From a virus (taxonomy: Duplodnaviria; Caudoviricetes), in IMG/VR virus record IMGVR_UViG_3300045971_000057, positions 1 to 62,530 of that record: a stretch of 62,530 bases of DNA, one strand, 5' to 3'. Under the pieces are notes generated by a model, which was given only the letters and a program-made list of their open reading frames with translations, was not told the DNA's origin and did no database searches. The position numbers and the translations under genes were made by a program. This document shows, in pieces, positions 4,532 to 21,509 of this stretch. Positions within the stretch are counted from its first letter, which is position 1. Each line of letters begins with the position of its first letter.

Positions 4532-5020
4532 GATCATCTTTCCTGTGGTTAAGCCATCAGGCAGTCTCGATCCCATAGGTCTGATTAACATCAGTCCCCC
4601 ATCACTCTTGCTAGGCTCGACACCAGGCCACGCATTCCAGTTGGCGGGTGTCTCTTGCCCATTTAATTTTTTATCATCACCAGAATCCATCGCCACAAGT
4701 TTGGACTCCAAAAGAGATTCCTGGCCACCACCAGTCTCATTCAACTTTTCAAAATCTCATCGTCGCAGAACAACCGAGCATTATCGTGGTCCTCCACCAG
4801 CTCCAGGTCATCGCCAGCTATCCGAAAGAGTCTTGTGGGTTGACCTCGATCTCCCCAACCTTCAACTGCTCCTCTATTATGCGTCAATTCCACAGAAAAA
4901 ATAACATTATTTACCAATCAATGGCAAACGCTGGCTACAACAGAGTCTATGATGCCTTTTGTGGGAATCATTGCCAATACTTATGCGACAAGGATTCCCA
5001 GAAACTGGGTTGAAAAAGAG

Positions 5021-5071
5021 TGCCTGAAAAACATAGATCGAGTGATACCAACGATCTATGTTTTTCAGGCA
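5021..5071. repeat. Perfect 20-bp inverted repeat with 11-nt spacer
   Basis: TGCCTGAAAAACATAGATCG ... CGATCTATGTTTTTCAGGCA. Confidence 0.9.
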
Positions 5072-5153
5072 TTTCTTAGCCTACCTTTTTTGCCTGTTTT
5101 TCCAGGCACATGGAGGCAGAGCAAACATTTGATTTCAAATCACTTACATTGCG

Positions 5154-8009
5154 TTATTTTTCCAATCCCTGGTCCACTGTTTTTTCAGTGCCTTCCAACT
5201 TCCTCCAACGCTCCACATACAGACGCCTGAATCCCTTCTGGACCTTGCCTTTCCACAGGAACCAATCACCCAATTTTCCTTCCTCTACAATGGGCGATCC
5301 AATGCGCAAATATTTGTGTCGATCAATCGTCACTTGAATAGTTCCTGTGTCATCCTCAACAGTCAAATTGAGGAACAAAGTCTGGCCACTCATCTGCCTT
5401 CCGTTGCGCTTCTGAACGAGGATGGTCTCATTGTGGTCACGCAGATTCTTTTCCTTCAATCGACCAAAGATTACAACCTCACCTTCAAACTCAGAATCAA
5501 TCTGCTCGATGTCTGCGATTGGGGTGTTGATCTTGTAGGCTGACGGGTCTGCCCTGATGTGGCCAAACTTGTCGTGGCACTCAAAGATCTGATCGTATGG
5601 AGTGGTCCCATTGGCCAGAAGATTCTTCTGCCTTGCGGTGTAGGGTTGGCCAGAACTTCTCCGGTTGATGATGTCTTCCGCAACCTTCTCACCAACACCC
5701 TTGATGCTCGTCAGACCACCAATCAACTCACCATCTTGGACGCTCCAATTCTTGTCTGACTTGTCTGGATCGAATGACTTGTATTTGAAGCCTTCCTTGT
5801 AGAGTTCACGCAACAACCGGATACACTGGTCGTCATCTCTCGCATTGCGCAGGCAGGCAGCAGCAAACTCCAAAGGGAATTTGGATTTGAGGACCACACA
5901 CCAGTAGGACACCATCGCATAGGCAACAGCATGTGAGCGATTGAAACTCCAAGATCCCATCGTGTTGATGTTCTCCCAGACCATCTTCGCATCCTCAGGC
6001 GACACACCGAGACTGGCCGCACCCTTTTCAAATCGCACCCAATACTGATCAAAGAACTCTTTGCCCAGACTCTTGGACATGGCCTTGCGCAGAGATGAGA
6101 CATCCTCCCAACTCAGCTGGCCAACCTCTCTTGCGATTTGCATCACCTGTTCCTGGTAGATGACGATTCCATAGGTGACTTTGGTCATCGGCTCACAAAG
6201 AGCATGCATGTATGCCGTTGGATGGTCACCGATGCGACGCTTTGTCCACTCAGCAGCACCACCAGAGATCAGTGGTCCTGGGCGAGCAATAGCAGTCAAT
6301 GAGGTGATGTCCTCAAAGTTCTCCACCTTGATCTGTTTGACGATTGACTGGAGTGCGTATCCTTCAAATTGGAAGATGCCGGCGAACTTCTGCTTGTTCA
6401 AAATCTCAAAGGCAGCAGCATCATCTGTTGGATAGGTCACCAACTGCTCACGTGTCCAGCCTACTTGATCGAGAACATCCTGTAGCACCGATAGGGTGCG
6501 CAGCCCCAAAGCATCAACCTTCAGAAGATCCAGAGCCTCAGCATCCTTCTTGTCGATCATTGCCGCGCCAGTGACCTTGTCCACAGAGCAGTAGTTGGCC
6601 AAAGGTTTGCTGGTGATGATGACCCCTGCCGCGTGCTGGCCGCTCTGCCTGGCGTGATTCTCTACATCAGCTGCGATCTTGAGTTGAGGATACTTCTCAA
6701 GCGTCTTGCGACCAACCTCAATCTCGTTGAAGGTGTCCAGGATACAGAAGGATGCGCGAGAGTCACCACCACTGCGCTCAATCATCGCATTTTTCAAGTC
6801 AGCCACTTCCCACGCAGGTATGTTGAGTTCCTTGGCGATGTCTCCGATTGCGCTCTTGGCTTTGTAGCGCATAATGCTGCCGATGCGGGCAACACATTCC
6901 TGGCCATAGGTCTGACGGAGATATTCAAAAACCATCTCACGCCGATCATCCTGGAAATCAATATCAATATCTGGAAGATCCTTCCGGTTGATGTCGATGA
7001 ATCGCTCAAAGAGCAGATCGTATGGAATTGGATCAATGTCGGTGATGCGCAGAAGGTAGCAGACAAGACTACCACAGGAAGATCCACGAGCAGGACCAAC
7101 CAGCATGTGCTGCTTCGCATACTTGATCAGATCCCACACGATGTAGAAGTAATCAGCAAACCCTTTCTCTGCGATCATGTCAATCTCACGGCGCAACCGT
7201 GCGGCATAAACCGGAGTAGCAAGGTCCACGTGACGCTCGATTGCCCCTTCAATACACATCTGCTCCAGAGACTTCTCTGCTTTGAAGTGCGGCAGTTCTG
7301 CGTGGCCAAGTTGAGCATTACACAGGTCAGCAATCGCATAGGTATTTTGGATGGCCCGGGCACGATCTTCTTCAGGCAGGAATGGGAACAGACGGGCCCA
7401 GGAGTAGTCATCGAGAATGTTCATGGGGCTGGTTCGCATGTGTCGATTGCGCCCAGCAACTACCTCATACACCTTCTCATCTTGGCTGCGGGGATAAAAG
7501 TTGTCGCCAGTGGCCACAATGTCAAACCCACGAGCCTGAGCAACATCCCACGATTTTTTCGTCACAGTTGGATTGATCTCAATGATCAGGTTGTCCCTCT
7601 TGGGCAGACTTCCCCACACTGGGCTGCTTCCAGAAAGGATGATGATGTCGTCACTTAGGTCAAACAGCACACCATAGTCAATGCGTGGGTGATAGTAATT
7701 GTGTTCAGTGGCCAGGGTAGTCAGAGCATACAACTCCTGGAGACCTTTGTTGTTCATTGGAAGGAAGTTCATGAAGTTCACACCCTGCTTCTCTCGCAGG
7801 TTCATATCCTCAACCACTGCCAATTCCACACCAAGGATGGGCTTCTTTCCTGCCTTCTTACATGCCTTGCTGAACTCCACGTGCCCCCAAGTTCCGTGGC
7901 GGTCACAGATGCCAATTGCTTCCTCTTTTCCACAAGCAGCAATCACCTTGTCGATTGGGCCATAGACTTCTCTGAAGCTGTATTCTGTCCGGTTGCGGAG
8001 ATTGATCAT
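5154..8009 (-). CDS. dnaE: DNA polymerase III alpha subunit-like (family C)
   Basis: N-terminal PHP-like region, GPARGSSCGSLV, LLFERF, PDIDIDF, HAAGV, KVDALGL, SFNRSHAVAY, HhH (IKGVGEK), C-terminal OB fold. Confidence 0.95.
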   Translation of the reverse strand: MINLRNRTEYSFREVYGPIDKVIAACGKEEAIGICDRHGTWGHVEFSKACKKAGKKPILGVELAVVEDMNLREKQGVNFMNFLPMNNKGLQELYALTTLATEHNYYHPRIDYGVLFDLSDDIIILSGSSPVWGSLPKRDNLIIEINPTVTKKSWDVAQARGFDIVATGDNFYPRSQDEKVYEVVAGRNRHMRTSPMNILDDYSWARLFPFLPEEDRARAIQNTYAIADLCNAQLGHAELPHFKAEKSLEQMCIEGAIERHVDLATPVYAARLRREIDMIAEKGFADYFYIVWDLIKYAKQHMLVGPARGSSCGSLVCYLLRITDIDPIPYDLLFERFIDINRKDLPDIDIDFQDDRREMVFEYLRQTYGQECVARIGSIMRYKAKSAIGDIAKELNIPAWEVADLKNAMIERSGGDSRASFCILDTFNEIEVGRKTLEKYPQLKIAADVENHARQSGQHAAGVIITSKPLANYCSVDKVTGAAMIDKKDAEALDLLKVDALGLRTLSVLQDVLDQVGWTREQLVTYPTDDAAAFEILNKQKFAGIFQFEGYALQSIVKQIKVENFEDITSLTAIARPGPLISGGAAEWTKRRIGDHPTAYMHALCEPMTKVTYGIVIYQEQVMQIAREVGQLSWEDVSSLRKAMSKSLGKEFFDQYWVRFEKGAASLGVSPEDAKMVWENINTMGSWSFNRSHAVAYAMVSYWCVVLKSKFPLEFAAACLRNARDDDQCIRLLRELYKEGFKYKSFDPDKSDKNWSVQDGELIGGLTSIKGVGEKVAEDIINRRSSGQPYTARQKNLLANGTTPYDQIFECHDKFGHIRADPSAYKINTPIADIEQIDSEFEGEVVIFGRLKEKNLRDHNETILVQKRNGRQMSGQTLFLNLTVEDDTGTIQVTIDRHKYLRIGSPIVEEGKLGDWFLWKGKVQKGFRRLYVERWRKLEGTEKTVDQGLEK

Positions 8010-8275
8010 CGCAACTCCACCACAGCAATTGGTTCGACAGGAGGAAGGCTGTGAAGAGGATCACCCTCATCAAGCAATCGAACGCACATGGCCATGGTTT
8101 GAACAATCTCTTTTTTCACATCAGACAGTGGGCCTTTGCCAGCACGATGATCGAGAATTGCCTTGATGACTTCTCCAGCCTCTTCAGCAAAGGCTGTCGT
8201 CAGAAGGTCTGGACTTTGGTGTAGTGTTCTTGCCCTTCTGACTTCTGCCTGGACTTGGTTCATTAGCACTTTCAT
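8006..8275 (-). CDS. MazG-like NTP pyrophosphohydrolase
   Basis: All-alpha, AEEAGEVIKA...KKEIVQTMAM pattern; start 8275. Confidence 0.6.
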   Translation of the reverse strand: MKVLMNQVQAEVRRARTLHQSPDLLTTAFAEEAGEVIKAILDHRAGKGPLSDVKKEIVQTMAMCVRLLDEGDPLHSLPPVEPIAVVELR

Positions 8276-8492
8276 TCTTTCTCCTTGGTGGTGCTGGGTT
8301 GGGTATCCCTGCCTCGACAACTCTGACTGCTTGCTTTGATCCTAAATGGAGCACACCTTCAATGGTCCCATCTGCCCACTTGATGTCCCAAAGGTTCTGC
8401 TCCCCCATCCTTATTTTAGTTGGCACAATCTTGGTTCCTGACTTGTGTTCCCAAGATCCATTGGCGAGTTGCTTCCAATCTTCTTTGGCCAT
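8184..8492 (-). CDS. Hypothetical protein
   Basis: ORF directly after helicase stop. Confidence 0.5.
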   Translation of the reverse strand: MAKEDWKQLANGSWEHKSGTKIVPTKIRMGEQNLWDIKWADGTIEGVLHLGSKQAVRVVEAGIPNPAPPRRKNESANEPSPGRSQKGKNTTPKSRPSDDSLC

Positions 8493-8493
8493 A

Positions 8494-9711
8494 TCAATAC
8501 AGCCAAGTCAACTTTTCTTTGGCTCGTGTGACTGCGGTGTACAACCAACGCTTCCTGAAGCCTCGATCCTTTTCATTCATCGCATCATCGACAAGGATCA
8601 CGTGGTCCCACTCACTGCCCTGAGACTTGTGGACTGTAATCGCATATCCATAGTCCAGTTCAATCAGGCCAATGCGTGATGGCCAAGGCTCCTCAATTGC
8701 GTCATCATGGTAGTGAACATCAAATGGATAGTTGTAGATTGGCGCCCTGCGAACAAAGCTGCCTTCATACATCAGATCCAATTCCCAGTCACCAGATGCC
8801 TCGTTGAGTTCTGTGTTGCTATCAGACAGGCACTGGACACCGTTGATGAACATGTTACCAGCGTGGGTGAGATTCTTCAGGCAGATGAGTTTCTCACCAG
8901 AGACAGGGAAGGTTGACTCATGATGCCCAAGCAACTTCCGAGTGATGCGATTGAGTTTGCGCCTGATGGTATTCCTTCCGGTCAGGATCTGATCGCATTG
9001 AGTGAAGTTGTCCAAGCTGAAGTTGGCCTTTGGCCGACGCAAGATGTGCTCAGAATCGATGAATGGGTCAATATCAATTCCCTTGCGGATGTCCATGCTC
9101 AATCGGATGATTGGGTTGCCCAAAGCCTGGCGCTGGACCTGGGTCAAGATGATGTCTGGCTTCTGAGTTGAGAAGAATCCAGAATCACCAACAGGAGGCA
9201 ACTGCCCAGGATCACCAACAAACAGAACCTTGGCGCCTGTTCTCTCCAAGTCACCCAGCATCTTGTTGGTCACCATGGAAGCCTCATCAATGATAACAAA
9301 ATCATTGGGCTTGATCTTCACATTGTCCTTGTCTGCGAAAGTGATCTTGCGCTCATTGAGCTTCACCTTCTCATCATGGATCATCTCAATCAGTTTGCTG
9401 TCCCCTGGAATATTGAGCAGCTGCTCTTCCAATCGCATCAGGTCATACAGGGATGGCGCGACAGGAACATACAACACGCTGTGGATAGTTCGCACCACCA
9501 CATTGGTGAGTTTCTTCTGAAGCACTGAAGCTGCTTTTCCGGTTGGACACAGGCAGATTGGTTCAGCACCCAGAGAGTTGATGAGGTGGTGGAGTAGGAA
9601 GGTCTTGCCAGTGCCAGCATATCCTCCCAGATACAGCATCCAACGGTCTGGATCTTTCAGCCACTCACCAATCTTTTTGACGGCATCTTCTTGCTCTGGA
9701 CTCAGGCTCAC
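8494..9711 (-). CDS. SF1B RecD/Dda-like helicase
   Basis: GYAGTGKT, IIDEASM, VGDPGQLPPV, YAITVHKSQGSEW, LYTAVTRAK; GTG start 9711. Confidence 0.92.
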   Translation of the reverse strand: MSLSPEQEDAVKKIGEWLKDPDRWMLYLGGYAGTGKTFLLHHLINSLGAEPICLCPTGKAASVLQKKLTNVVVRTIHSVLYVPVAPSLYDLMRLEEQLLNIPGDSKLIEMIHDEKVKLNERKITFADKDNVKIKPNDFVIIDEASMVTNKMLGDLERTGAKVLFVGDPGQLPPVGDSGFFSTQKPDIILTQVQRQALGNPIIRLSMDIRKGIDIDPFIDSEHILRRPKANFSLDNFTQCDQILTGRNTIRRKLNRITRKLLGHHESTFPVSGEKLICLKNLTHAGNMFINGVQCLSDSNTELNEASGDWELDLMYEGSFVRRAPIYNYPFDVHYHDDAIEEPWPSRIGLIELDYGYAITVHKSQGSEWDHVILVDDAMNEKDRGFRKRWLYTAVTRAKEKLTWLY

Positions 9712-10253
9712 AACAGACCTTCCTTGCGCAGATACTTGACGACACGAACCAGTGCCTCTACATCCGCCATCGCACGATGCGCATCCTTGTGTTCCGCACC
9801 CTCTGCAAGCTCGTGCAATTGACAAAGTCTCATTCTCTTATTCCGTATCGAAAATGAAGCCTCAACGGTGCAAATCTGCGTGGGGCACCATGGAAACTTG
9901 AACTCGCATCCATTGCGCATCAGGTCAAACCGGAGTAGCGATGTATCAAAAGACAAGTTGTGCGCAATCAGGGTTTGGGCGCCAAGAAAGAACTTGGAGA
10001 GTGGATCGATGTGCGCAACGAAAGGAAGGGCATCAGACAGCATCTCATCGGTGATGCCTGTGATCTTGATGATTTCTTCAGGAAGGGTGCGACCTGGGTG
10101 AACAAGGAACTCCAAGCGATCAACTTCCTCCAAGGTATCAAAGTCAACCTTGATGGCTGCGAACTCAATGATCTGCGGCTGGTCATCGAGTGGTGTGGCC
10201 AGAGGTTTGACGAGTCCAGTGGTCTCAGTGTCAAAGATGATTGCGTGGTTCAT
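9708..10253 (-). CDS. DEDDh 3'-5' exonuclease (Pol III epsilon-like)
   Basis: IFDTETTG, AHNLSFD, HRAMADV. Confidence 0.9.
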   Translation of the reverse strand: MNHAIIFDTETTGLVKPLATPLDDQPQIIEFAAIKVDFDTLEEVDRLEFLVHPGRTLPEEIIKITGITDEMLSDALPFVAHIDPLSKFFLGAQTLIAHNLSFDTSLLRFDLMRNGCEFKFPWCPTQICTVEASFSIRNKRMRLCQLHELAEGAEHKDAHRAMADVEALVRVVKYLRKEGLL

Positions 10254-11122
10254 TTGTAATCCTTCACAAAGTGGTGGCATTCTGCGACAGACTTCATAGA
10301 CGCACCAAAATGGACTTCAAATTCGGTGTGTAGTTTCACAGGGAACTTTCGACCATCATGAGTCCAAGACCCATCATTCCAGCGAGTGCGAACCCAGTGC
10401 TGAACATTCTCAGCAATCACCTTGCTGTTGTGGATTGAATCTGGAGGTTGATTCTCAGTCAACTTGTGGACATTGCGCAGAAGCGTTGGGTTGAAGAACT
10501 GCTTGGCTGCGTAGTATCCAGAAGCAACGATTGGATATGACGCAGCAGTTTCTTCAAGGCCACCAGAAAGGCCAACAACCTCATTCAAGAACACACCACA
10601 AGTCTCGATTGTGTTGCGAAGGAATAGGCCACGCGATGTAGCAATCAGTCCGATGGTTGTTGGCTTGATCTTGTATTGCTGAGGCATCCCTCCAAGAGCA
10701 CCAACACAGCAGACAACTCCGCACTTCTTGTAGTCATCCATGTAGTCCAGCACCTCATCATATCGCTCACCTGAGGATCTTGGGAATTGCTTGGTGCCTG
10801 GAGAGAACTCCATGTTGTCGTCGCCAAAGCAATAGTAGTCAACACCAGGGAACAGCAAGGCTGCTTCTTGTCGAAGTCTGGTCATGCTTGGAGCAACTTC
10901 TGGATGCCTGATGGAATCCGACATTGCGATGCGGCATTCAAAACCAGCATCTTCAACTTTCTTTTTTGCCTCAATAGCAGAATCGACTGTCCACGGAGAT
11001 TGGCAGCACAACGCAAAAGCTGCTCTGCCTCTGAGGTTGCTGATGTGCTGGAGTGAGCCATAGATGAACTCATCAAACTCATCAGGGTGAATTGATGGGA
11101 TGACGAACGCAAATCTGCTCAT
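10250..11122 (-). CDS. Putative GT-A fold glycosyltransferase
   Basis: N-terminal FVIPS strand, SMTRLRQEA...DYYCFGDDNMEF (DxD-like), later LEET acidic motif. Confidence 0.6.
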   Translation of the reverse strand: MSRFAFVIPSIHPDEFDEFIYGSLQHISNLRGRAAFALCCQSPWTVDSAIEAKKKVEDAGFECRIAMSDSIRHPEVAPSMTRLRQEAALLFPGVDYYCFGDDNMEFSPGTKQFPRSSGERYDEVLDYMDDYKKCGVVCCVGALGGMPQQYKIKPTTIGLIATSRGLFLRNTIETCGVFLNEVVGLSGGLEETAASYPIVASGYYAAKQFFNPTLLRNVHKLTENQPPDSIHNSKVIAENVQHWVRTRWNDGSWTHDGRKFPVKLHTEFEVHFGASMKSVAECHHFVKDYK

Positions 11123-11757
11123 CCAAGATCCTTTCCAAGAGGCACCGCATTGGTTGGCCTGTATGGACGCAAAGCCTGTTCAAAGATTGGGTTAATTGCT
11201 GCGGGGATTTCAGTGGTGGAAGATCCAATGGGAGGTTCCTCAGCATGGCGTGCTTCGGTGTCTTCAAACTCAGCAGCATACTCACGATCAGCACGAGACA
11301 TGACCACATCTCCAGGCAGATGGTGAGTTGAAGAAAGATCAGTCACTGGGATTCTGCAGCACTCAGACAGAGGCTTGACTTCCACCTCAGCAAGCCACTG
11401 ACCTGAATAGTCAGGCTTCACAGTGGTCACCAACTTGACTGGAGGCTCAACATACAAGCCAGCAATCTCAGCATCCAACTCTTCCAGCATCGCAGAATAG
11501 ACGATGTCATCATGGACAGAATCCTGGTGGCCAACTTTTGGATTCGTCACATAGCGGCTGAGTTTGGCAATCTTCATGAAGATGACTCCATAGCGATTGA
11601 AGTCATCAACGCTGGAAAGAGTCAGACCATCAGGGAACAGAGCAACCATCACGTGGCCAAACCTCTTGTAGTTGTTCCCATACTTCTTGTTGCGGTCGAT
11701 GTAGGTCTTGAGTGCTTCCTCAAGGTTGACGATGGCGTGAAAATTTGTCTGATCCAT
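11119..11757 (-). CDS. Alpha-helical nucleotide-modification-associated / pyrophosphatase-like protein
   Basis: DRNKKYG...KIAKLSRY...HQDSVHDDIVYSAML resembles DUF6378/Nmad-type phage domains. Confidence 0.55.
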   Translation of the reverse strand: MDQTNFHAIVNLEEALKTYIDRNKKYGNNYKRFGHVMVALFPDGLTLSSVDDFNRYGVIFMKIAKLSRYVTNPKVGHQDSVHDDIVYSAMLEELDAEIAGLYVEPPVKLVTTVKPDYSGQWLAEVEVKPLSECCRIPVTDLSSTHHLPGDVVMSRADREYAAEFEDTEARHAEEPPIGSSTTEIPAAINPIFEQALRPYRPTNAVPLGKDLG

Positions 11758-12212
11758 CAGTAGTCACCTTTCTGAACTTGGAAGCACTTCAGTCCGTTGC
11801 GGCGCCACATGTCCACAACAGTATCTCGATCATCCAGCACAAACTGAACATCATAGTTGTCCTTGATGATCTTCATCCACTTTTCTTCCTTGACGACATA
11901 GTCACTGCGGTAGTCACCATCCGTGCGCATACAGAGCATGTCCCAACCAACACCATGAGCAGCAAGCCACGCAGTTGTGTAGTGAGAATACTTCTCAAAG
12001 CGTCCAGTGACCAGCAGAATTTTGTAACCTGCCTTCTTGTAGATATTCACCAGATCAATCACGTGGTTGTGCGGCTCATCAAAAGGAATGTCCTCATTGA
12101 AGGCATCCCAGTTCTTTTTCAGGCCAGCAGTTTCGATATGGTGGAGACGCTGCTTGATGTTACAGATCGTTCCATCCAGGTCAACGATGATTGCGAGTTC
12201 CATGTTGCTCAT
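11757..12212 (-). CDS. HAD phosphatase (T4 PNKP phosphatase-domain-like)
   Basis: DLDGT, VTGR, K, LDDR...VVDMWR. Confidence 0.88.
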   Translation of the reverse strand: MSNMELAIIVDLDGTICNIKQRLHHIETAGLKKNWDAFNEDIPFDEPHNHVIDLVNIYKKAGYKILLVTGRFEKYSHYTTAWLAAHGVGWDMLCMRTDGDYRSDYVVKEEKWMKIIKDNYDVQFVLDDRDTVVDMWRRNGLKCFQVQKGDY

Positions 12213-12214
12213 GA

Positions 12215-13054
12215 TCAATCCTTTGGGGCGTGAGGCTGGGCTTCTGCGCGAGTGACTTCCCACAGAGCATGAATTTCATTCTTGGTGAGAGGCTTCTGGT
12301 GGACATCCACAGTGGTCCCATCTTCCTGGTCAAAGAAAGTGTGGACTGCTTCGTCATACCGGAGTCCAGTCTCAGGGTTGAAGATCCCACCCTTGATCGG
12401 GCAATCCATGTATGAAGGGAAACAGCAGGTCCCATTCGACGCACAATGGACTCGCAGCATACGCTCTGTCCACGGATGAACAGCAATCACCTCATCCCTG
12501 ATCTGGCGCATCACATCTTGGAACTCACCCTGGGCCTTCACGCACAGACGCTCACCAGCCATCCCATTCAGGGTGCGGAGGTTTGCCTTGAACACGATCC
12601 CAGTTTGGATGTTGGTTGGAAGGATGCCTCGTGCGTCCTGGGTGCGAGCACCAGCAGCAGCCAGCTTCTTGTAGGTGTCCTTGATCCCATCCATCCCATC
12701 CGCATAGATGATGCTGAGATTTTTGTCCTCCAAGATGCTTCCGGTTTCAACAAACTCAAACTCAGACATGTCCACAACACGCTGTGCCTGCTGCGCAAAG
12801 GAAGTTCCGATGCGGTGACGAACAAGCTGATGAGTGAAGGCACGAGTCACACCTTCGATCAGGAAAACATAATCAGCAAACTCCCAACTGGACTTGATGG
12901 TGTTGAGCATGTATTCCAGCTCAGCCATTTTCTTTTCCTGAGGCCAAGCCTTGATGGTTTCCAGACCAGTAGCACTCATCTTCAATCGAGTGGACTTGGT
13001 GAAGATGAGAGTCTCAAGAGCATCTTGAGTGTAGTTGATGAGTGTGACCTTCAT
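12215..13054 (-). CDS. thyX: Flavin-dependent thymidylate synthase-like protein (variant motif)
   Basis: FLIEGVTRAFTHQLVRHR..SFAQQAQR, DARGILP, NLRTL, RLCVKAQGE. Confidence 0.85.
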   Translation of the reverse strand: MKVTLINYTQDALETLIFTKSTRLKMSATGLETIKAWPQEKKMAELEYMLNTIKSSWEFADYVFLIEGVTRAFTHQLVRHRIGTSFAQQAQRVVDMSEFEFVETGSILEDKNLSIIYADGMDGIKDTYKKLAAAGARTQDARGILPTNIQTGIVFKANLRTLNGMAGERLCVKAQGEFQDVMRQIRDEVIAVHPWTERMLRVHCASNGTCCFPSYMDCPIKGGIFNPETGLRYDEAVHTFFDQEDGTTVDVHQKPLTKNEIHALWEVTRAEAQPHAPKD

Positions 13055-13056
13055 GG

Positions 13057-13551
13057 CTACTCCTTGACCAGCTGAGTCATCAGGCAGAGGTTGCGCTCGA
13101 CAACGCCGATGATGATGTTGAGGTGAACACGCAAGCGCCAGTTCTCACCAGGCCTCATGTAGTATGTGTTCTTGAAAAGATTCTGCCAAGTGGTCTCACA
13201 CCAGACAGACTTGTGACTCAGATCCTGCGCACTCATCTGAGAGTTGTAGTAGGGCACCACGATGTTGGCCACGCCACCAGGCTTCAGCACTCGCTGAATC
13301 TCAGCAAGCATAGCAATGGGATTGTCCAGATGCTCAAGGAAGTGATAGGCATGGACACAGTCAGTAGAATCGGTGCCTGCCGAGATTGTGTTGAGATTCG
13401 CATCCCAGGAAGGAAGATCCAGATTGATGGCGCCCTGGATGATCTTCTTGCCGCATCCGAGATTGAACACCAACCCATGCTCATCCCAGCGATGGATTGG
13501 AGGTATGTCTCGATCCATCCCTATGCGAAAAAGGTCTTGAACTGTCTTCAT
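13057..13551 (-). CDS. Class I SAM-dependent methyltransferase (small-molecule/sugar type)
   Basis: NLGCG motif I, HFLEHL, EIQRVLKPGG. Confidence 0.85.
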   Translation of the reverse strand: MKTVQDLFRIGMDRDIPPIHRWDEHGLVFNLGCGKKIIQGAINLDLPSWDANLNTISAGTDSTDCVHAYHFLEHLDNPIAMLAEIQRVLKPGGVANIVVPYYNSQMSAQDLSHKSVWCETTWQNLFKNTYYMRPGENWRLRVHLNIIIGVVERNLCLMTQLVKE

Positions 13552-14501
13552 CTTGCCTCCCAGTTTGGTTTGTGGGTTGCGCTCAATGCGCGTTGGTAGT
13601 GATCCTTTGTGGTGATAAAGTCTCCAATGACGGCAATGTCCCTGACCAGATCATCAAGAAGGATATTGCGCCAAGTTGCGAACCTGCCCAGAGAGTAGAT
13701 GTTGTATGTATTCGTCAACCCCATGATGAATTGTTTTCTCAGATCCTCATTCATTGGAGCAATCTTGCCATATTTCTGCTCACGCAGCAGGACACCAGAA
13801 AGGATGCCATGGATACCAAAATGTACCAGAGTCTCTTGAGCATACCCATCAGCAAAGTCAACTGGGATCTCAGCAATCAATTCAATGATCAATTTGCTAC
13901 CAGTGATGCTGGCGCGATACACAGGAGTCTCATCACCAGGGAAGTAGATTGTTTGGTAAATGGAAGATTCAGGATCAATGATGTCTGCGGTGATCACCCA
14001 GATGGATCGACTCACAAATTCGCACTCAGGAGCCTTTGGCCATTGCGCCATGCCCATCATCATAGGCATTGGAAGGGTGCTGATGGTAGGCTCATCGCAG
14101 TGCTCATCTATGGCCTTGATGGCAGTGATAGGAGTGCTGAAGCTGATGTCGCATCCATTGGCGAGTTGCTCAACAAAATTATTTGGAGCAATCCATCGCT
14201 CGGATGGTTCAATGTTCAAGATACTCCGGTTGGATATTTTCCGGGTCACCTTCTGGGAATACAAATTCGCAAACCGGAGGTTTGATTCGGTGAAGTGCTT
14301 TTGGCCAACAGCAATGCCCTTGTGGACTGTGACCTTCTTGAAAGGGATTCCAGTCAGCTTTGAGATCGCATCTGATCGGAAGCGCAGCAAGGCATCGTGA
14401 TTCTTGGGCAAAAAATCTTGCTTCTCAAAGATGGTTGGATTGTGCTTGCGAAGTAGATTCGCAGCCAGCAAGCCAGCCATGCCTGCTCCAAGGATGATCA
14501 T
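13548..14501 (-). CDS. FAD/NAD(P)-dependent oxidoreductase, UDP-galactopyranose-mutase-like architecture
   Basis: IILGAGMAGL...FEK Rossmann motif, ISTLPM, C-terminal SLGRFATWR. Confidence 0.75.
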   Translation of the reverse strand: MIILGAGMAGLLAANLLRKHNPTIFEKQDFLPKNHDALLRFRSDAISKLTGIPFKKVTVHKGIAVGQKHFTESNLRFANLYSQKVTRKISNRSILNIEPSERWIAPNNFVEQLANGCDISFSTPITAIKAIDEHCDEPTISTLPMPMMMGMAQWPKAPECEFVSRSIWVITADIIDPESSIYQTIYFPGDETPVYRASITGSKLIIELIAEIPVDFADGYAQETLVHFGIHGILSGVLLREQKYGKIAPMNEDLRKQFIMGLTNTYNIYSLGRFATWRNILLDDLVRDIAVIGDFITTKDHYQRALSATHKPNWEAR

Positions 14502-14537
14502 CAGAACTCCTGAAATTGTTGGTTGAATTCCTTTGTC

Positions 14538-14575
14538 CAAACGCAGGGCATGTCGTCAGCCATGCCCTGCGTTTG
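14538..14575 (-). terminator. Strong hairpin after basic-protein gene (terminator or processing stem)
   Basis: CAAACGCAGGGCATG / CATGCCCTGCGTTTG 15-bp stem; no clear U tract. Confidence 0.55.
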
Positions 14576-14582
14576 AGGTTGC

Positions 14583-14915
14583 CTACTCGACAGACAAGAA
14601 CTTGCGCTCAATGCCCATCTTGAGATCAAAGCTGTTGCCGCCCAGCTCGATGAACTTCTCATAGAGCATACCGCTGCGGAGCAACTTGAAAGTCTCGTGG
14701 CGAGCAGATCCCTCACGATAGGGATTGCCGTCCACCAGCTTGGTGATCTTCTTGCCCAGCATCGGGCTGGGGCGGCCAAGAGTCTTGGTGCCCACTTCCT
14801 TCTTGGGAGCCTTGACCTTGGGGGTGGCTTCCTTCTTGGGGGTGGCTTCCTTCTTGGCCTTGGGAGCAGCATCCTTCTTGGGAGCAGCCTTCTTGGCCTT
14901 GGTGGTGTCGCTCAT
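14583..14915 (-). CDS. Histone-H1-like Lys/Ala/Pro-tailed small DNA-binding-like protein
   Basis: KKAAPKK/KKEATPKK repeats, then KITKLVDGNPYREGSARHETF...GGNSFDL; GGAGG RBS. Confidence 0.8.
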   Translation of the reverse strand: MSDTTKAKKAAPKKDAAPKAKKEATPKKEATPKVKAPKKEVGTKTLGRPSPMLGKKITKLVDGNPYREGSARHETFKLLRSGMLYEKFIELGGNSFDLKMGIERKFLSVE

Positions 14916-14977
14916 GGTAATGATTCCTCCTGTGACTGAGACTTTGAAAGTTGGCGCTCAGCAATGCCCTTGATCAG

Positions 14978-14997
14978 ACTTTTATTGTAACCTGGTT
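14978..14997 (-). promoter_or_regulatory. Putative phage promoter AACCAGGTTACAATAAAAGT
   Basis: 18/20 identical to 21887-21906, intergenic, upstream of a start codon. Confidence 0.6.
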
Positions 14998-15157
14998 CTT
15001 GACTTCCAAATCATTTGGAAGGTTGCGTTGGATTGTTGATGCCTTGAGCTTTTGCTCTGTAACCATCGGTGTTCGCAGACCAGTGATCTGAATTCCTGCC
15101 ATCATGAAGGTGAACACCCTGCTCTTCTTCAACTGGTTTAGGTGCTGACTTGGGAAA

Positions 15158-16621
15158 CTAGACTGGATAGTGCTTCTGAGTTTGCGGCTGAATAAATGTG
15201 AGGGAATGTTTGGCTCTTGTGACTGCGACATATAGCACCCGTTGTTCTTCATCAGTTGTGAGGGAATGCCAAGGCCTGATGGTTAAGTCAGGAATCAAAA
15301 CAACATGATCTGCTTCTCCACCCTTGACGCGATGAATTGTGCTGATTGCGATTCTTGGTTTGTCCGTCAATGACTCCTTGTTTGCGAGACAGGCTCGGAT
15401 GTATTCACGCTTCTGTGCTGGGATGACCAACGCATCCATCCAGTTCATCTTCAGCAGAGCCTTGTTGGTAGCAATTGGGCTGTTCTGAATTGTGACTTCC
15501 TCTTTTGGTTTGAATCCTTCAAGTTGAGGCATCACAGACACCAGACACTTCACTTCAGCTGGCAACAGCGGTCTGCCTTTGATCCAATTGCCCCAAGCAA
15601 TGATTGCCTTTGTGGTGCTGTCGTTTGTGCTGTGCCTTCCTTCCATCATGTATGGGTAGCCTTGGTTTTCCATAACAGTTCTGAACCTGCTCAGGAAGCG
15701 ATGGTTGCGAGAGAGCAAAAGCCAGGTGCCTTGCTTCACATCCAGCAAAGACTCATACCGGAGGAAGTTCACAGAACCTTCCTCTGCCCTGCTGTTCCAG
15801 GTCTTGGGTTGCCTCACACTTATACCATCAGTGATCTGTGTGGCCAATCTCCAGATGCTCTTTGGTAGCCTCCAGCTGGTGGGAAGAATTTCAGTTTTGG
15901 CTCGGATGCTCAGGAACTTGTTCACATCAGCACCAGCCCATGAATAGATACATTGGTCGTCATCGCCAGCAAGATAGATCTGCTTTGCGTTGGAGGCAGC
16001 CACTCGGACAACACGCCACTGGAGTGGGCTGAGATCCTGCCCCTCATCAATGATGAATAGATCAACATCAAGTGGCGTGTTGTAGTTCTCAAGCAGGTCT
16101 GTGAAGTCCATCAGGCCACGCATCTCTTTGTATTGCTTCAATCCTTTTGCCCATTGTTCAACAGCAGCCCAAGGGCAATCTCGTTCAGAGGCTTCACACC
16201 ATTGGTCCTCCAGTGAAACATTCCTGATGCGAGACAACGCTTCAATTCTGGAGACTTTGTCTCCAAGGGCAGTTCCCAAGGGAATGAAAAGGAAGTCATC
16301 ATCAACGCTGGTGAATTGGAATCCGAGAGCATTGCCCAACTCCTTGTAGTGTTCATCACTCATGATGTCGTCACGCCGCATGGACAAATCTCGGAAGGCC
16401 ATGCTGTGTAGTGTTCTGAAGAATGGGAATCGCTCAGGGCCCATGTTGAACTTTTCTTGGGCTCGATTGACTGCCTCATCCGCAGCCTTCTTGGTGAAGG
16501 CCATGTAGGCAATTCTCTCTGGCGGTGTCCCTGCCTTCATTGCTTCTTCAACAATCATGAGAAGCCTGGTTGTTTTGCCAGTCCCAGGCGGCCCAAAGAT
16601 TTTTGTGATGCGATTGCTCAT
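15158..16621 (-). CDS. SF1A UvrD/Rep-like helicase
   Basis: GPPGTGKT, AFTKKAA, TLHS, IDEGQD, GDDDQCIY, STIHRVKGGE, LYVAVTRA. Confidence 0.92.
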   Translation of the reverse strand: MSNRITKIFGPPGTGKTTRLLMIVEEAMKAGTPPERIAYMAFTKKAADEAVNRAQEKFNMGPERFPFFRTLHSMAFRDLSMRRDDIMSDEHYKELGNALGFQFTSVDDDFLFIPLGTALGDKVSRIEALSRIRNVSLEDQWCEASERDCPWAAVEQWAKGLKQYKEMRGLMDFTDLLENYNTPLDVDLFIIDEGQDLSPLQWRVVRVAASNAKQIYLAGDDDQCIYSWAGADVNKFLSIRAKTEILPTSWRLPKSIWRLATQITDGISVRQPKTWNSRAEEGSVNFLRYESLLDVKQGTWLLLSRNHRFLSRFRTVMENQGYPYMMEGRHSTNDSTTKAIIAWGNWIKGRPLLPAEVKCLVSVMPQLEGFKPKEEVTIQNSPIATNKALLKMNWMDALVIPAQKREYIRACLANKESLTDKPRIAISTIHRVKGGEADHVVLIPDLTIRPWHSLTTDEEQRVLYVAVTRAKHSLTFIQPQTQKHYPV

Positions 16622-17007
16622 TTGAACTCTTTCATATTCGCAGCCATCTGCTGAACAATCCACTGGATTCCGTATGCCTGGTGCTCACCTTTGGGGCACT
16701 CACCCTTCATCGCATCACAGACTTCATTCCACACATGGGCTGCCTCGTGAGCAAGCAGTGCGGCAAGCTGGGATTTGCTGATTCCTTTCTTCCTCTTCAA
16801 GCATACGATGATGGTCACATGGTCATACCTAAGCAGCACGTGCGTTGTTGCGTTCGATCCTGGAGTGACCCATGGCCTTGGCTCTTTGACTTTGATCCTT
16901 TTCACTTCCTTGTCATATTCCTTCTTTTTGGTTGTAAAGCCAAAATATACTGGCCATGATCCGGTCGCAAAGTAGTGGATGTGTGCCTTACTCATCTGAT
17001 GATCCAT
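16618..17007 (-). CDS. Hypothetical protein with HExxH motif
   Basis: LAHEAAH...E. Confidence 0.6.
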   Translation of the reverse strand: MDHQMSKAHIHYFATGSWPVYFGFTTKKKEYDKEVKRIKVKEPRPWVTPGSNATTHVLLRYDHVTIIVCLKRKKGISKSQLAALLAHEAAHVWNEVCDAMKGECPKGEHQAYGIQWIVQQMAANMKEFK

Positions 17008-17817: not shown

Positions 17818-18159
17818 TTATCGCTCATCAGCAATCCCTTTGCCATGAGCACCAACCTCGCTGATGCCGATGCCGCTGATGCCAAGATATTCTTTCCCAG
17901 TCTTGAGATCCTTGAGGATGTATATTCCACGCTTGTCGTTGTAGGCAACGGTGTCTTTGAACACACCAACACGCGTGACTTTGAATCTCGCACCATTTGC
18001 TTCTGGGCCCAGATCATCCAGCTTGGTGTTTGCTGCGGGGCCACAACTAATGAAGAAGATTGCGCCACAAAGAAGGATAGCCAAGATGATGATTTTTTCC
18101 AAAGTGTTGTAGTGCTTGATTGACCAGTGGCCATTGTTTGGCTCATAGTTCACTCTCAA
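17818..18159 (-). CDS. Putative lipoprotein
   Basis: Hydrophobic stretch ending FFISCG (lipobox-like); start uncertain. Confidence 0.45.
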   Translation of the reverse strand: MRVNYEPNNGHWSIKHYNTLEKIIILAILLCGAIFFISCGPAANTKLDDLGPEANGARFKVTRVGVFKDTVAYNDKRGIYILKDLKTGKEYLGISGIGISEVGAHGKGIADER

Positions 18160-20637: not shown

Positions 20638-20674
20638 GGGAGGCTCCTGTGTAGTTGGGGTTGTGAATTGGCTC

Positions 20675-20887
20675 TCAAGAGCCTGGTTGGACTGAGACTT
20701 GTTTGATGGTCTTGATGTCGTCAACGATGAGGATTGGACTGATGACCTCAATAACTGCTTCCACCAGATCTGTGCCTGCTTCGATATTGATAATGATGCG
20801 CTTGACATTTTTCAACTCCACCTTTGTATCTTTGTCGATCACCTTGGTGCCTCTTGTGGTGCCGTCAGAGATTATGCACAGGACCAT
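20675..20887 (-). CDS. Hypothetical protein
   Basis: Coupled ORF. Confidence 0.55.
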   Translation of the reverse strand: MVLCIISDGTTRGTKVIDKDTKVELKNVKRIIINIEAGTDLVEAVIEVISPILIVDDIKTIKQVSVQPGS

Positions 20888-21492: not shown

Positions 21493-21509
21493 GCGATGAC
21501 TCCTGTGTG

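What the first reader, a model, noticed from the sequence alone, without database searches (positions are those of the whole stretch)
10250..14501. Candidate undescribed DNA hypermodification operon
Seen: six coupled genes in this order: FAD oxidoreductase with UGM-like ends, SAM methyltransferase, variant ThyX, HAD phosphatase, alpha-helical pyrophosphatase-like protein, GT-A glycosyltransferase. They run straight into exonuclease, helicase, MazG-like gene and DnaE. Established: phage base-modification loci typically pair a thymidylate-synthase homolog with nucleotide-pool enzymes, transferases and a dedicated polymerase. I did not recognise the markers of known routes (ThyA-type hydroxymethylase, 5hmdU kinase/aGPT, DpdA/QueCDE, PurZ). 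Inference: a ThyX-based route to a modified pyrimidine carrying a (methylated, possibly furanose) sugar. Alternative: the GT and MTase modify virion proteins and ThyX just makes dTMP.
Basis: partly seen in the sequence, partly recalled or inferred. Interest (0 to 1): 0.85.

Follow-up and report, generated by a model that had tools for sequence, protein, structure and literature searches.

The report
Phage ThyX–flavoprotein DNA-modification gene cluster
A pond-water phage carries a tightly packed gene set (an unusual thymidylate-synthase relative, an uncharacterised flavoprotein, a phosphatase, a methyltransferase and a sugar-transferase) whose core is shared with phages recently found to have sugar-decorated thymine in their DNA, so it is a strong candidate for the still-unknown genes that make such DNA.

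Summary
Six tightly packed minus-strand genes at 10250-14501 encode a UGM/PPO-fold flavoprotein, a small SAM methyltransferase, a divergent ThyX, a PNKP-type HAD phosphatase, a DUF6378-like helical protein and a GT-A glycosyltransferase. They run into DnaQ, a Dda helicase and DnaE.

The cluster is not unique. Flavoprotein-ThyX-HAD-DUF6378-DnaQ-DnaE is a conserved module: ThyX lies beside the flavoprotein in 82 of 87 viral loci, and the flavoprotein occurs in 362 phage records (292 Pseudomonas, 27 Escherichia). Variable slots in the module hold tailoring-type enzymes: methyltransferase, carbamoyltransferase, SDR, radical SAM, 2OG oxygenase and this GT. Loci retrieved through the GT alone again hold ThyX (7 of 9) and the flavoprotein (6 of 9).

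Two papers support a link to DNA modification. Pbunaviruses, which carry the core, have sugar-like hypermodified thymidine whose genes are unidentified. Wifceviruses, which also carry it, resist restriction without a known protection mechanism.

My best reading (about 0.5) is an undescribed thymidine-hypermodification pathway, with the methyltransferase and GT as lineage-specific tailoring enzymes. The chemistry is inferred. The idea that the flavoprotein supplies a furanose sugar is not supported.

The parts
13548..14501 (-). UGM/PPO-fold FAD-binding protein (317 aa), member of phrog_4828; function unknown; constant partner of ThyX
   Evidence: 2890 homologues, none with a Pfam domain among the 120 listed. 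Model pLDDT 91. Z 22.3 to eukaryotic UGM, about 20 to PPO. ThyX lies beside it in 82 of 87 loci.
13057..13551 (-). Small class I SAM-dependent methyltransferase (164 aa, phrog_6636); accessory tailoring gene
   Evidence: Inside the module in 10 of 87 loci. Elsewhere in the genome in Pbunavirus SN and Burkholderia phage WTB. A phrog_6636-like MTase lies next to ThyX in GT locus L101.
12215..13054 (-). Divergent flavin-dependent thymidylate synthase homologue (ThyX, 279 aa) with altered signature motif and a four-cysteine insertion
   Evidence: Thy1 3e-35. TIGR02170 90.1 vs cutoff 87.9. Motif comparison. Cys-bearing insertion co-varying with RLC/RLS.
11757..12263 (-). PNKP-type HAD phosphatase (DLDGT motif; likely start ATG at 12212)
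   Evidence: HAD_PNKP 1.5e-37. phrog_505/415. Present in 69 of 87 loci.
11119..11757 (-). DUF6378-like helical domain protein (N-terminal about 100 aa) with a poorly modelled C-terminal tail; fused to the HAD domain in Pbunavirus and Wifcevirus
   Evidence: Homologue in 72 of 87 loci. F8 gp057 C-terminus matches it.
10250..11122 (-). GT-A fold glycosyltransferase of an unnamed family (290 aa; nearly invariant D101-D102, N103)
   Evidence: Model pLDDT 97. Z 16 to RmlT/TarS/AvpGT. 291 representative clusters. 0 of 90 members hit Pfam. Family loci hold ThyX in 7 of 9 and the flavoprotein in 6 of 9.
9708..10280 (-). DnaQ-like 3'-5' exonuclease
   Evidence: RNase_T 1.6e-27. phrog_192.
8494..9825 (-). 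Dda/RecD-like SF1 helicase
   Evidence: AAA_30, UvrD_C_2. phrog_325 3.9e-92.
8006..8320 (-). Small ORF with an EEAGE-type motif (possible MazG-like protein); unconfirmed
   Evidence: Translation. No Pfam or NCBIfam hit.
5154..8009 (-). DnaE-type DNA polymerase III alpha
   Evidence: DNA_pol3_alpha 6e-70.
15158..16663 (-). UvrD-like helicase, the conserved upstream neighbour of the module
   Evidence: Homologue upstream in 66 of 87 loci.

Best explanation
The six genes are the nucleotide/base-modification arm of a phage replication module. I read them as an undescribed pathway that puts a decorated thymidine, or another C5-substituted pyrimidine, into virion DNA.

Shown
- The protein identities and folds.
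- The tight gene packing.
- Conservation of the core: UGM/PPO-fold flavoprotein, a ThyX clade with an altered motif, a PNKP-type HAD phosphatase and a DUF6378 domain, lying next to DnaQ and DnaE.
- Exchange of tailoring-type enzymes in the module's variable slots among relatives.

Inferred
1. The ThyX-clade enzyme, alone or with the flavoprotein, makes a C5-substituted pyrimidine nucleotide that carries a free hydroxyl, for example a 5-hydroxymethyl or polyol substituent. The alternative is that the pair installs the substituent on DNA.
2. The HAD phosphatase and the helical domain process a phosphorylated intermediate or clean the nucleotide pool.
3. The GT-A enzyme transfers a sugar from a host NDP-sugar onto that hydroxyl. 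No sugar-nucleotide genes were found in the window.
4. The SAM methyltransferase methylates the appended group.
5. The modified DNA escapes restriction.

The role of the flavoprotein is the least clear step.
For: 1. Core conservation. Among 87 IMG/VR loci retrieved through the flavoprotein, phmmer found ThyX in 82, DnaQ in 73, the DUF6378 protein in 72, HAD in 69 and DnaE in 65, always in the order UvrD-FAD-ThyX-HAD-DUF6378-DnaQ-DnaE. Of the 5 loci without ThyX, 4 end within 300 bases after the flavoprotein gene.

2. Isolated phages. tblastn finds the flavoprotein in 362 phage records (292 Pseudomonas, 27 Escherichia). The same 292 and 27 counts appear for this ThyX. The module is annotated in Cronobacter phage Ss1, Wifcevirus WFC, and Pbunavirus F8 and 14-1. 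F8 gp065 is 37% identical to the window flavoprotein (E 3e-44) and F8 gp059 is 35% identical to the window ThyX (E 2e-51).

3. Variable slots hold enzymes typical of hypermodification clusters:
- SDR in 24 loci.
- Methyltransferase in 10 loci.
- NodU/TobZ-type carbamoyltransferase in 4 loci, between the flavoprotein and ThyX.
- 2OG-Fe oxygenases (two copies in L094), radical SAM and MazG.
The window's closest IMG/VR relatives by ThyX carry different add-ons: none in L053 and L021, carbamoyltransferase in L016.

4. GT linkage. Nine loci were found through the GT alone (30-36% identity; L103 and L104 are near-duplicates). They hold ThyX in 7, the flavoprotein in 6 and DnaE in 7. The GT sits between the flavoprotein and ThyX in L098 and L100, after the DUF6378 gene in L103, L104 and L105, and beside DnaE-UDG fusions in L101 and L102. 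L101 and L102 also carry a related methyltransferase next to ThyX.

5. Literature.
- PMC12191111, sections 2, 3, 8 and 11 read as passages or section. F8 and 14-1 virion DNA carries thymidine derivatives of 362 and 390 Da. They replace about a quarter of T, in TG context, and are described as a tetrose sugar-alcohol derivative and a circularised aldopentose derivative. The authors say such phages do not carry previously implicated genes.
- PMC11990801, section 16 passage. [quoted passage not shown]
- PMC8670742, passages. A phage carbamoyltransferase acts on a hydroxymethyl pyrimidine. This is a precedent for hydroxyl-directed tailoring next to a thymidylate-synthase homologue.
Against: - No chemistry was measured for this uncultured phage. 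No gene of the module has been tied experimentally to the Pbunavirus modification.
- The ThyX passes NCBI's equivalog cutoff for ordinary FAD-dependent thymidylate synthase. It keeps most positions that are invariant in the clade and align with solved ThyX. It may simply make dTMP.
- F8 and 14-1 carry different modifications, yet their flavoproteins are 97% and their ThyX 94% identical. The most diverged genes there are gp070 (56.5%) and the PNKP-like gp057 (79.7%). gp070 has no homologue in the window. The specificity determinant in Pbunavirus may therefore lie outside the shared core.
- The TG-context specificity reported for F8 points to a DNA-level enzyme. A nucleotide-pool route alone would not explain it.
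- The GT's nearest solved structures are wall-teichoic-acid glycosyltransferases, so the fold does not indicate a DNA substrate.
- In Pbunavirus SN and Burkholderia phage WTB the methyltransferase lies far from the module.
Confidence: 0.5

Rival explanations
1. This is an ordinary nucleotide-supply module. ThyX makes dTMP for replication. The flavoprotein is a redox helper or an unrelated enzyme. The HAD phosphatase and helical protein do nucleotide salvage or pool cleaning. The GT and methyltransferase are unrelated accessory genes that landed in a permissive insertion hot spot, for example enzymes that modify host envelope glycans or virion proteins.
For: - TIGR02170 thyX equivalog score above cutoff (90.1 vs 87.9) and Thy1 match over the full profile.
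- The module sits between helicases and DnaE, like other phage nucleotide-metabolism genes.
- The GT's best solved matches are RmlT, TarS and TarP, which are teichoic-acid glycosyltransferases.
- The methyltransferase is unlinked to the module in SN and WTB.
- The module's slots also hold homing endonucleases and other selfish genes. This fits an insertion hot spot.
Against: - It does not explain why an uncharacterised flavoprotein is co-inherited with this ThyX clade in 82 of 87 loci.
- It does not explain why the GT family recurs inside the module at three different positions in loci found independently of ThyX.
- It does not explain why the slot cargo is enriched in hydroxyl-directed and redox tailoring enzymes.
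- It does not explain why Pbunavirus and Wifcevirus show DNA-modification phenotypes with no known genes.
Confidence: 0.27
2. The flavoprotein is a true UDP-galactopyranose (or other NDP-sugar) mutase that supplies a furanose donor to the GT, which glycosylates a ThyX-derived base.
For: - The best structural matches are UGMs (Z 22.3).
- The N-terminal GxGxxG and the C-terminal GRFATWR stretch resemble UGM (the UGM motif is recalled, not tested).
- A phage UGM beside DNA glycosyltransferase genes has been proposed for Rhizobium phage RL38J1 (PMC13326640, passages).
Against: - This GT family is absent from 86 of the 87 flavoprotein loci.
- There is no Pfam GLF match at E<=0.01, and no PDB match by sequence or profile.
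- The protein is 317 aa, against 363-393 for the listed bacterial UGM chains. PPO and amine oxidases score nearly as well (Z 18-20).
- Its constant partner is ThyX, not a glycosyltransferase.
Confidence: 0.07
3. The cluster modifies something other than DNA: tRNA or other RNA, or a free nucleoside or nucleotide (a nucleoside-antibiotic-like product or a signalling molecule).
For: - One of the GT's better structural matches, AvpGT, is solved in complex with the nucleoside Ara-A (Z 15.9, 16% identity).
- Methyltransf_11/23-type enzymes mostly act on small molecules, from general knowledge.
- PNKP-type phosphatases act on nucleic-acid ends, from general knowledge.
Against: - Constant embedding next to the replicative polymerase, the exonuclease and, in L101 and L102, DnaE-UDG fusions.
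- DNA-level phenotypes in cultured relatives.
Confidence: 0.06

Closest known systems
Pbunavirus (F8, 14-1, PB-1) and Wifcevirus replication/nucleotide module
   Same: - Homologous flavoprotein (phrog_4828), Cys-insert ThyX, PNKP-type HAD plus DUF6378 domain, DnaQ, DnaE, Dda helicase and Pam3 gp33/gp34-like proteins, in the same order.
- Pbunavirus DNA carries sugar-like thymidine hypermodifications.
- Wifcevirus resists the tested RM systems.
   Different: - Only 35-40% protein identity.
- The window phage has lambda-like siphovirus tail genes, whereas those phages are myoviruses.
- HAD and DUF6378 are separate genes here and fused there.
- Those phages lack this GT family (only Rhizobium and one Streptococcus phage record). 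Where they have the methyltransferase, it lies elsewhere in the genome.
- Their responsible genes are unidentified, so the link is by association only.
5-hmdU-derived thymidine hypermodification clusters (ViI, M6, PaMx11, SP10, PhiW-14; Lee et al. 2018, 2021/22)
   Same: - A thymidylate-synthase-type enzyme next to replication genes.
- Combinatorially exchanged tailoring enzymes, including radical SAM, FAD-dependent and transferase types.
- Partial replacement of T (PMC8989533, abstract and passages).
   Different: - Those clusters use a ThyA-family dUMP hydroxymethylase, a 5-hmdU DNA kinase and aGPT-Pplase amino-acid transferases.
- None of those Pfam families was found in the window.
- Here the synthase is ThyX-type and the constant partner is a UGM/PPO-fold flavoprotein.
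Glycosylated 5-hydroxycytosine pathway (RB69, DLP3; RL38J1 cluster with UGM) - PMC13326640
   Same: - A thymidylate-synthase homologue working with a flavin makes a hydroxylated pyrimidine nucleotide, which DNA glycosyltransferases then decorate.
- In RL38J1 a phage UGM is proposed to supply the sugar (abstract and passages).
   Different: - There the synthase is ThyA-type with loosely bound FMN, the base is cytosine, and sugar-nucleotide genes are phage-encoded.
- The RL38J1 mutase is a full UGM (reported Z 50 to 5er9). The protein here is a trimmed relative (Z about 18-22).
- No sugar-nucleotide genes were found in the window.
5-hydroxymethylcytosine carbamoyltransferase clusters (MetaGPA, PMC8670742)
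   Same: A NodU/TobZ-type carbamoyltransferase next to a thymidylate-synthase homologue. The same arrangement occurs in relatives L016, L017, L019 and L080 of this module.
   Different: There the partner is a ThyA-type dCMP hydroxymethylase. The window itself has no carbamoyltransferase.
UDP-galactopyranose mutase / protoporphyrinogen oxidase / amine-oxidase flavoenzymes
   Same: Two-domain FAD fold covering residues 1-304 of the model (Z 22 to 17.5).
   Different: - No sequence-level membership: no GLF or amine-oxidase Pfam hit.
- Shorter than every listed match.
- Substrate unknown.

Membership tests
Flavin-dependent thymidylate synthase (ThyX) | Thy1/ThyX domain over full length | tested here: met
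   PF02511, E 3.2e-35, profile positions 1-191 of 191. TIGR02170 equivalog 90.1 bits vs cutoff 87.9.
Flavin-dependent thymidylate synthase (ThyX) | Canonical ThyX motif RHRxxSxxxxSxR (motif wording recalled; compared with solved chains) | tested here: not met
   The window has RHRIGTSFAQQAQR: one extra residue, and Ala at the second Ser position, relative to RHRHFS(F/Y)SQLSQR of 3ge9/3gwc. In 82 related loci the commonest forms have RTR in place of RHR, e.g. 26 loci with HQFVRTRQGSYAQQSQR.
Flavin-dependent thymidylate synthase (ThyX) | Converts dUMP to dTMP with CH2-THF and NAD(P)H | not testable with these tools
   Needs an enzyme assay.
UDP-galactopyranose mutase (GLF) | GLF domain by sequence | tested here: not met
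   Only NAD_binding_8 at residues 16-42 of the 330-aa ORF. No PF03275 hit at E<=0.01. No PDB sequence or profile match to UGM.
UDP-galactopyranose mutase (GLF) | UGM three-domain fold | tested here: inconclusive
   Top matches are UGMs (Z 22.3, 299 aligned), but PPO (Z 20) and amine oxidases (Z 18) are close behind. The protein is about 50-180 residues shorter than the matches.
UDP-galactopyranose mutase (GLF) | Genomic association with a glycosyltransferase that uses the furanose donor | tested here: not met
   This GT family is present in 1 of 87 flavoprotein loci. Other GT families were not searched for systematically.
GT-A glycosyltransferases | GT-A Rossmann-like fold | tested here: met
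   Model pLDDT 97.4. All 50 listed matches are GT-A enzymes, Z 16.2 to 14.5.
GT-A glycosyltransferases | DxD-type metal/NDP-sugar motif | tested here: met
   D101 and D102 are nearly invariant (>=90%) in 90 family members. D101-D102-N103 is invariant among the 5 close homologues. Assignment of these residues as the DxD motif is by position in the sequence only.
GT-A glycosyltransferases | Membership of a curated GT sequence family (e.g. Glycos_transf_2) | tested here: not met
   0 of 90 family members hit any Pfam family at E<=0.01.
5-hmdU-based thymidine hypermodification system | ThyA-type dUMP hydroxymethylase, 5-hmdU DNA kinase, aGPT-Pplase transferase | tested here: not met
   No such Pfam families among 80 window ORFs (20 at E<=0.01; 60 at E<=1e-4). 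No dedicated profile search beyond Pfam was run.
Class I SAM-dependent methyltransferase | Methyltransferase domain and glycine-rich SAM loop | tested here: met
   Methyltransf_23/11 above cutoff. NLGCG stretch seen in the translation.
HAD phosphatase, PNKP type | HAD_PNKP domain with DxDGT nucleophile motif | tested here: met
   PF25109, E 1.5e-37. DLDGT seen in the translation.

The most novel reading that the evidence does not exclude
The UGM-fold flavoprotein and the four-cysteine ThyX clade together perform a new reaction. In it, C1 of a sugar takes the place of the folate-derived methylene. The sugar would be captured on reduced-flavin N5, as in UGM, and joined to C5 of deoxyuridine, as in ThyX. 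The product would be C-C-linked alditol or C-glycosyl 'thymidines'.

My own arithmetic fits both Pbunavirus nucleosides reported:
- dU 228 + pentose 150 - H2O + 2H = 362.
- dU 228 + hexose 180 - H2O = 390.

The O-linked 5-hmdU alternatives give the same formulas, so the arithmetic does not discriminate between them. In the window phage, the GT and the methyltransferase would then further decorate the polyol.
Probability: 0.1. Interest if true: 0.95.

Novelty: new variant of a known kind. Interest (0 to 1): 0.78.

Why it matters
Pbunaviruses are among the phages most used in Pseudomonas phage therapy. A 2025 preprint showed that their DNA carries sugar-like hypermodified thymine and that a host nuclease family targets it, but it named no biosynthetic genes. 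Wifceviruses resist restriction for unknown reasons.

This analysis gives a concrete, testable candidate. It is a flavoprotein/ThyX/HAD/DUF6378 core shared by those phages and by hundreds of uncultured viral contigs, with exchangeable tailoring enzymes (GT, methyltransferase, carbamoyltransferase, SDR, radical SAM).

If the reading is right, three things follow:
- It would be the first ThyX-based DNA hypermodification route.
- It would assign a role to a large protein family (at least 2890 members) that has no annotation.
- It would predict a range of thymidine modifications in environmental phages.

Tried and rejected
- Complex prediction of the flavoprotein (A2) with ThyX (A6) gave no verdict (score 0.00, controls not run). 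It counts neither way.
- The search for related loci with the close GT alignment A1 found no relative in viral contigs or metagenome contigs. The 90-sequence alignment A3 was too diverse to seed a scan. A 14-sequence alignment, A5, worked.
- megablast of the region against phage records found no match.
- PDB sequence or profile searches for the flavoprotein, the GT and the 212-aa protein gave nothing meaningful.
- A search for longer, fused forms of the flavoprotein found none. This is weak evidence.
- Longer GT-family proteins (9 scanned) showed no informative fused domain.
- The promoter/terminator scan of 5000-17000 found no more sites than shuffled sequence does.
- Isoelectric points were not informative about DNA binding.
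- Sequencing runs: only two pond-metagenome runs, kept as contigs, hold the region, and no RNA holder is listed. Laying them showed presence only. Nothing can be said about expression or modification.
- The F8 versus 14-1 comparison of the PNKP-like protein showed diffuse divergence plus a repeat-length change in the acidic linker. It is not diagnostic.
- TrmFO/MnmG-like folate/flavin RNA methylases do not appear among the 50 listed structural matches of the flavoprotein. That list does not exclude them.

Not seen: supplementary files and extended data, namely the END-nuclease preprint's fragmentation spectra and restriction tables, and BASEL S2 Table. The chemical assignments and RM phenotypes are quoted from main text only.

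Full report
**What the window is.** The window is one IMG/VR viral record of 62,530 bases, estimated 80% complete. Pfam places terminase, portal, a lambda-like tail set and lysis genes on the plus strand from about 26 kb. A replication block lies on the minus strand below 26 kb. The region is also present in contigs of two pond metagenomes from two studies.

**The observation.** Six co-directional minus-strand genes fill 10250-14501 with overlaps or gaps of a few bases.
- A 317-aa protein starts with a GxGxxG dinucleotide-binding loop. It matches NAD_binding_8 only and phrog_4828, 'unknown function', at E 2e-80.
- A 164-aa class I SAM methyltransferase matches Methyltransf_23/11 and phrog_6636.
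- A 279-aa ThyX matches Thy1 at 3e-35. TIGR02170 scores 90.1 bits against a cutoff of 87.9.
- A PNKP-type HAD phosphatase scores 1.5e-37.
- A 212-aa protein has a first ~100 residues that are DUF6378-like.
- A 290-aa protein has no family match.

AlphaFold models were built on alignments of session homologues.
- The flavoprotein model has pLDDT 91. VIA-align puts eukaryotic UGMs first (Z 22.3, rmsd 3.3, 299 aligned), then protoporphyrinogen oxidases (Z about 20), bacterial UGMs (Z about 18.9) and amine oxidases (Z about 18).
- The 290-aa protein models at pLDDT 97. It is a GT-A glycosyltransferase: all 50 listed matches are GT-A enzymes (Z 16.2 to 14.5). D101-D102 are nearly invariant in 90 family members.

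Downstream lie a DnaQ-type exonuclease, a Dda-like helicase and DnaE. The 'MazG-like' ORF is supported only by a motif.

**The cluster is a conserved module with swappable parts.** The flavoprotein family is large and unannotated. The search found 2890 homologues at E<=1e-3, and none of the 120 listed has a Pfam domain.

By tblastn the flavoprotein occurs in 362 phage records: 292 Pseudomonas, 27 Escherichia, then Serratia, Rhizobium, Xanthomonas and others. The window's ThyX finds the same 292 and 27. Annotated records show the same order: flavoprotein, small ORFs, ThyX, PNKP-like HAD fused to the DUF6378-like domain, DnaQ, DnaE. This holds in Cronobacter phage Ss1, Wifcevirus WFC, and Pbunavirus F8 and 14-1. 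In Rhizobium jumbo phages the flavoprotein and ThyX lie 2.4 kb apart.

I retrieved 87 IMG/VR loci through the flavoprotein (7, 80) and searched their ORFs with the window proteins.
- Found: ThyX in 82 of 87, DnaQ in 73, the DUF6378 protein in 72, HAD in 69, UvrD in 66, DnaE in 65, the methyltransferase in 10, the GT in 1 (L054).
- The order is always UvrD-FAD-[MT]-ThyX-HAD-DUF6378-[X]-DnaQ-[Dda]-DnaE.
- Four of the five loci without ThyX end within 300 bases after the flavoprotein gene. L010 has 3.4 kb downstream without a ThyX hit and was not examined further.

I then collected unassigned ORFs of at least 80 aa inside the module: 153 ORFs in 50 clusters. I scanned representatives against Pfam (23) and PHROGs (18). 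The results were:
- A short-chain dehydrogenase in 24 loci (as in WFC).
- A phrog_624 'DNA binding protein' in 29 loci.
- A NodU/TobZ-type carbamoyltransferase in 4 loci (L016, L017, L019, L080), between the flavoprotein and ThyX.
- Two 2OG-Fe oxygenases in L094.
- Radical SAM and MazG proteins in L069.
- Homing endonucleases.

The window's nearest IMG/VR relatives by ThyX (64-75% identity) carry different add-ons. L053 and L021 have none, L016 has the carbamoyltransferase, and L019 has the methyltransferase plus the carbamoyltransferase.

**The GT belongs with the module.** A full HMMER search found 291 representative clusters of the GT family. None of 90 members hits Pfam.

Three close homologues (63-66% identity) come from contigs whose lengths (20,568, 6,143 and 8,745 bases) equal those of the contigs holding the three closest flavoprotein homologues.

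A scan seeded with GT sequences alone returned nine viral loci at 30-36% identity (L103 and L104 are near-duplicates). Profile and phmmer searches found the flavoprotein in 6 of the 9, ThyX in 7 and DnaE in 7. The GT's position differs between them:
- FAD-GT-ThyX-HAD/DUF6378-radical SAM-DnaQ-DnaE in L098. L100 shows the same order by homology; its ORFs were not scanned against Pfam.
- ThyX-HAD-DUF6378-GT-DnaQ in L103 and L104.
- The same order followed by radical SAM, SDR and dUTPase in L105.
- ThyX-methyltransferase-...-GT next to DnaE-UDG fusions in L101 and L102. The L101 methyltransferase matches phrog_6636, the window's family.

Two loci (L099, L106) lack ThyX and the flavoprotein within 8 kb. 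They carry an aldo-keto reductase and a radical SAM gene. In Rhizobium phage TM30 the GT homologue lies beside gyrase and a nucleotide-sugar epimerase. In a Streptococcus phage it lies beside two other glycosyltransferases, a 5'-nucleotidase and an exonuclease.

Repeated, positionally independent association with the ThyX/DnaE block is hard to reconcile with a virion-protein or envelope role.

**ThyX is a distinct clade.** Solved ThyX chains have RHRHFS(F/Y)SQLSQR(F/Y). The window has RHRIGTSFAQQAQRV. Among 82 module ThyX proteins the commonest form is HQFVRTRQGSYAQQSQR (26 loci), with Thr replacing the motif's His. Many other positions that align with solved ThyX are invariant.

In the 36-sequence alignment A6, 18 sequences carry an insertion with three conserved cysteines. 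In these the upstream motif reads RLC. The short forms read RLS or lack the cysteine. These 18 include the window and five of the loci that carry the GT (L054, L100, L101, L103, L105). L098, F8 and WFC ThyX, which are not in A6, also have the insertion. Four co-varying cysteines suggest a metal or Fe-S site. This is inference.

**Link to phenotype in the literature.**
- Yee et al. (bioRxiv 2025.03.31.646159 / PMC12191111; I read passages and section 8). F8 DNA resists enzymes whose sites contain TG. LC-MS of F8 and 14-1 nucleosides shows new thymidine derivatives of 362 and 390 Da replacing about a quarter of T. The authors interpret them as a tetrose sugar-alcohol derivative and a circularised aldopentose derivative. 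They state that gene-homology screens would miss such phages. No biosynthetic genes are named.
- Humolli et al. (PMC11990801, section 16 passage). [quoted passage not shown]

Both genera carry the core.

Six full-text searches found no paper that assigns these genes: (ThyX/phage/DNA modification; Wifcevirus; Pbunavirus with restriction, hypermodified or LC-MS terms). Later Pbunavirus papers only cite the preprint. The library lacks most subscription journals, and supplements were closed.

**Mechanism.** O-carbamoyltransferases and glycosyltransferases need a hydroxyl acceptor. In known phage systems that hydroxyl is made by a thymidylate-synthase homologue: 5hmC for the carbamoyltransferase (PMC8670742) and 5-hydroxycytosine made with a flavin (PMC13326640).

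By analogy I infer that the ThyX clade, with or without the flavoprotein, generates a hydroxyl-bearing C5 substituent. The window's GT would glycosylate it from a host NDP-sugar, since no sugar-nucleotide genes are in the window. The methyltransferase would then methylate the product. The HAD/DUF6378 pair would handle a phosphorylated intermediate.

This is inference, and three results cut against parts of it:
- The ThyX passes the equivalog threshold for an ordinary thymidylate synthase.
- F8 and 14-1 differ in modification yet have 97% and 94% identical flavoprotein and ThyX. Their most diverged genes are gp070 (56.5%) and gp057 (79.7%), and gp070 has no homologue in the window.
- TG-context specificity implies a DNA-level step.

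The furanose-donor idea is unlikely, because the flavoprotein is present in 86 loci without this GT and fails the GLF test.

**Verdict.** The interpretation as a candidate undescribed DNA hypermodification locus is strengthened, but it needs reframing. There is a widespread ThyX/flavoprotein core, shared with phages now known or suspected to have modified DNA, plus lineage-specific GT and methyltransferase tailoring genes. My confidence in a DNA-modification role is about 0.5. An ordinary nucleotide-supply module with unrelated cargo is about 0.27.

Noticed in passing
window 34891-35472 (+): A 193-aa ORF between the portal (DUF4055) and a Mu-F-like head protein matches ADP-ribosyltransferase families: ADPrib_exo_Tox 8.6e-10 and ART 1.5e-7. 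The NCBIfam XopAI model matches at 1.9e-12, far below its cutoff. It may be a head-associated, injected ART like those of other phages.
   Followed up: no
window 12215-13054 (-); alignment A6: ThyX proteins of this module split into a short form (about 215 aa, RLS) and a long form (RLC plus an insertion with three more conserved cysteines). 18 of 36 aligned sequences have the long form, as do F8 and WFC. Four co-varying cysteines suggest a metal or Fe-S site, which I do not know from characterised ThyX.
   Followed up: partly
L101 9105-12818; L102 10500-15143: DnaE polymerases fused at the C-terminus to a uracil-DNA glycosylase domain. The L102 copy also carries an intein. Both occur in loci holding the GT and ThyX.
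   Followed up: no
L016, L017, L019, L080 (e.g. L019 11457-13142): A 562-aa NodU/TobZ-type carbamoyltransferase sits between the flavoprotein (or methyltransferase) and ThyX. It may mark a carbamoylated variant of the same pathway.
   Followed up: partly
window 19756-21869 (-): Pam3 gp34-, gp33- and gp32-like proteins lie inside the replication block. They are homologous to F8 gp051 and gp052, which sit between the helicase and MazG. These 'Pam3' families look replication-associated rather than structural.
   Followed up: no
L096 17894-19090 vs L097 19997-21301: Pbunavirus F8 gp070 and its 14-1 counterpart share only 56.5% identity in otherwise 90-99% identical genomes whose DNA modifications differ. 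It belongs to phrog_5310 (unknown function) and has no Pfam domain. It is a candidate specificity determinant.
   Followed up: partly
window 18143-19681 (-): A 512-aa protein with an AEP-TOTE primase-like domain (3e-9), probably the phage primase.
   Followed up: no
window 8184-8492 and 8006-8320 (-): Two ORFs of about 100 aa overlap by 137 bases in different frames between the helicase and DnaE. Only the downstream one has a recognisable (MazG-like) motif. Which of them is expressed is unclear.
   Followed up: no
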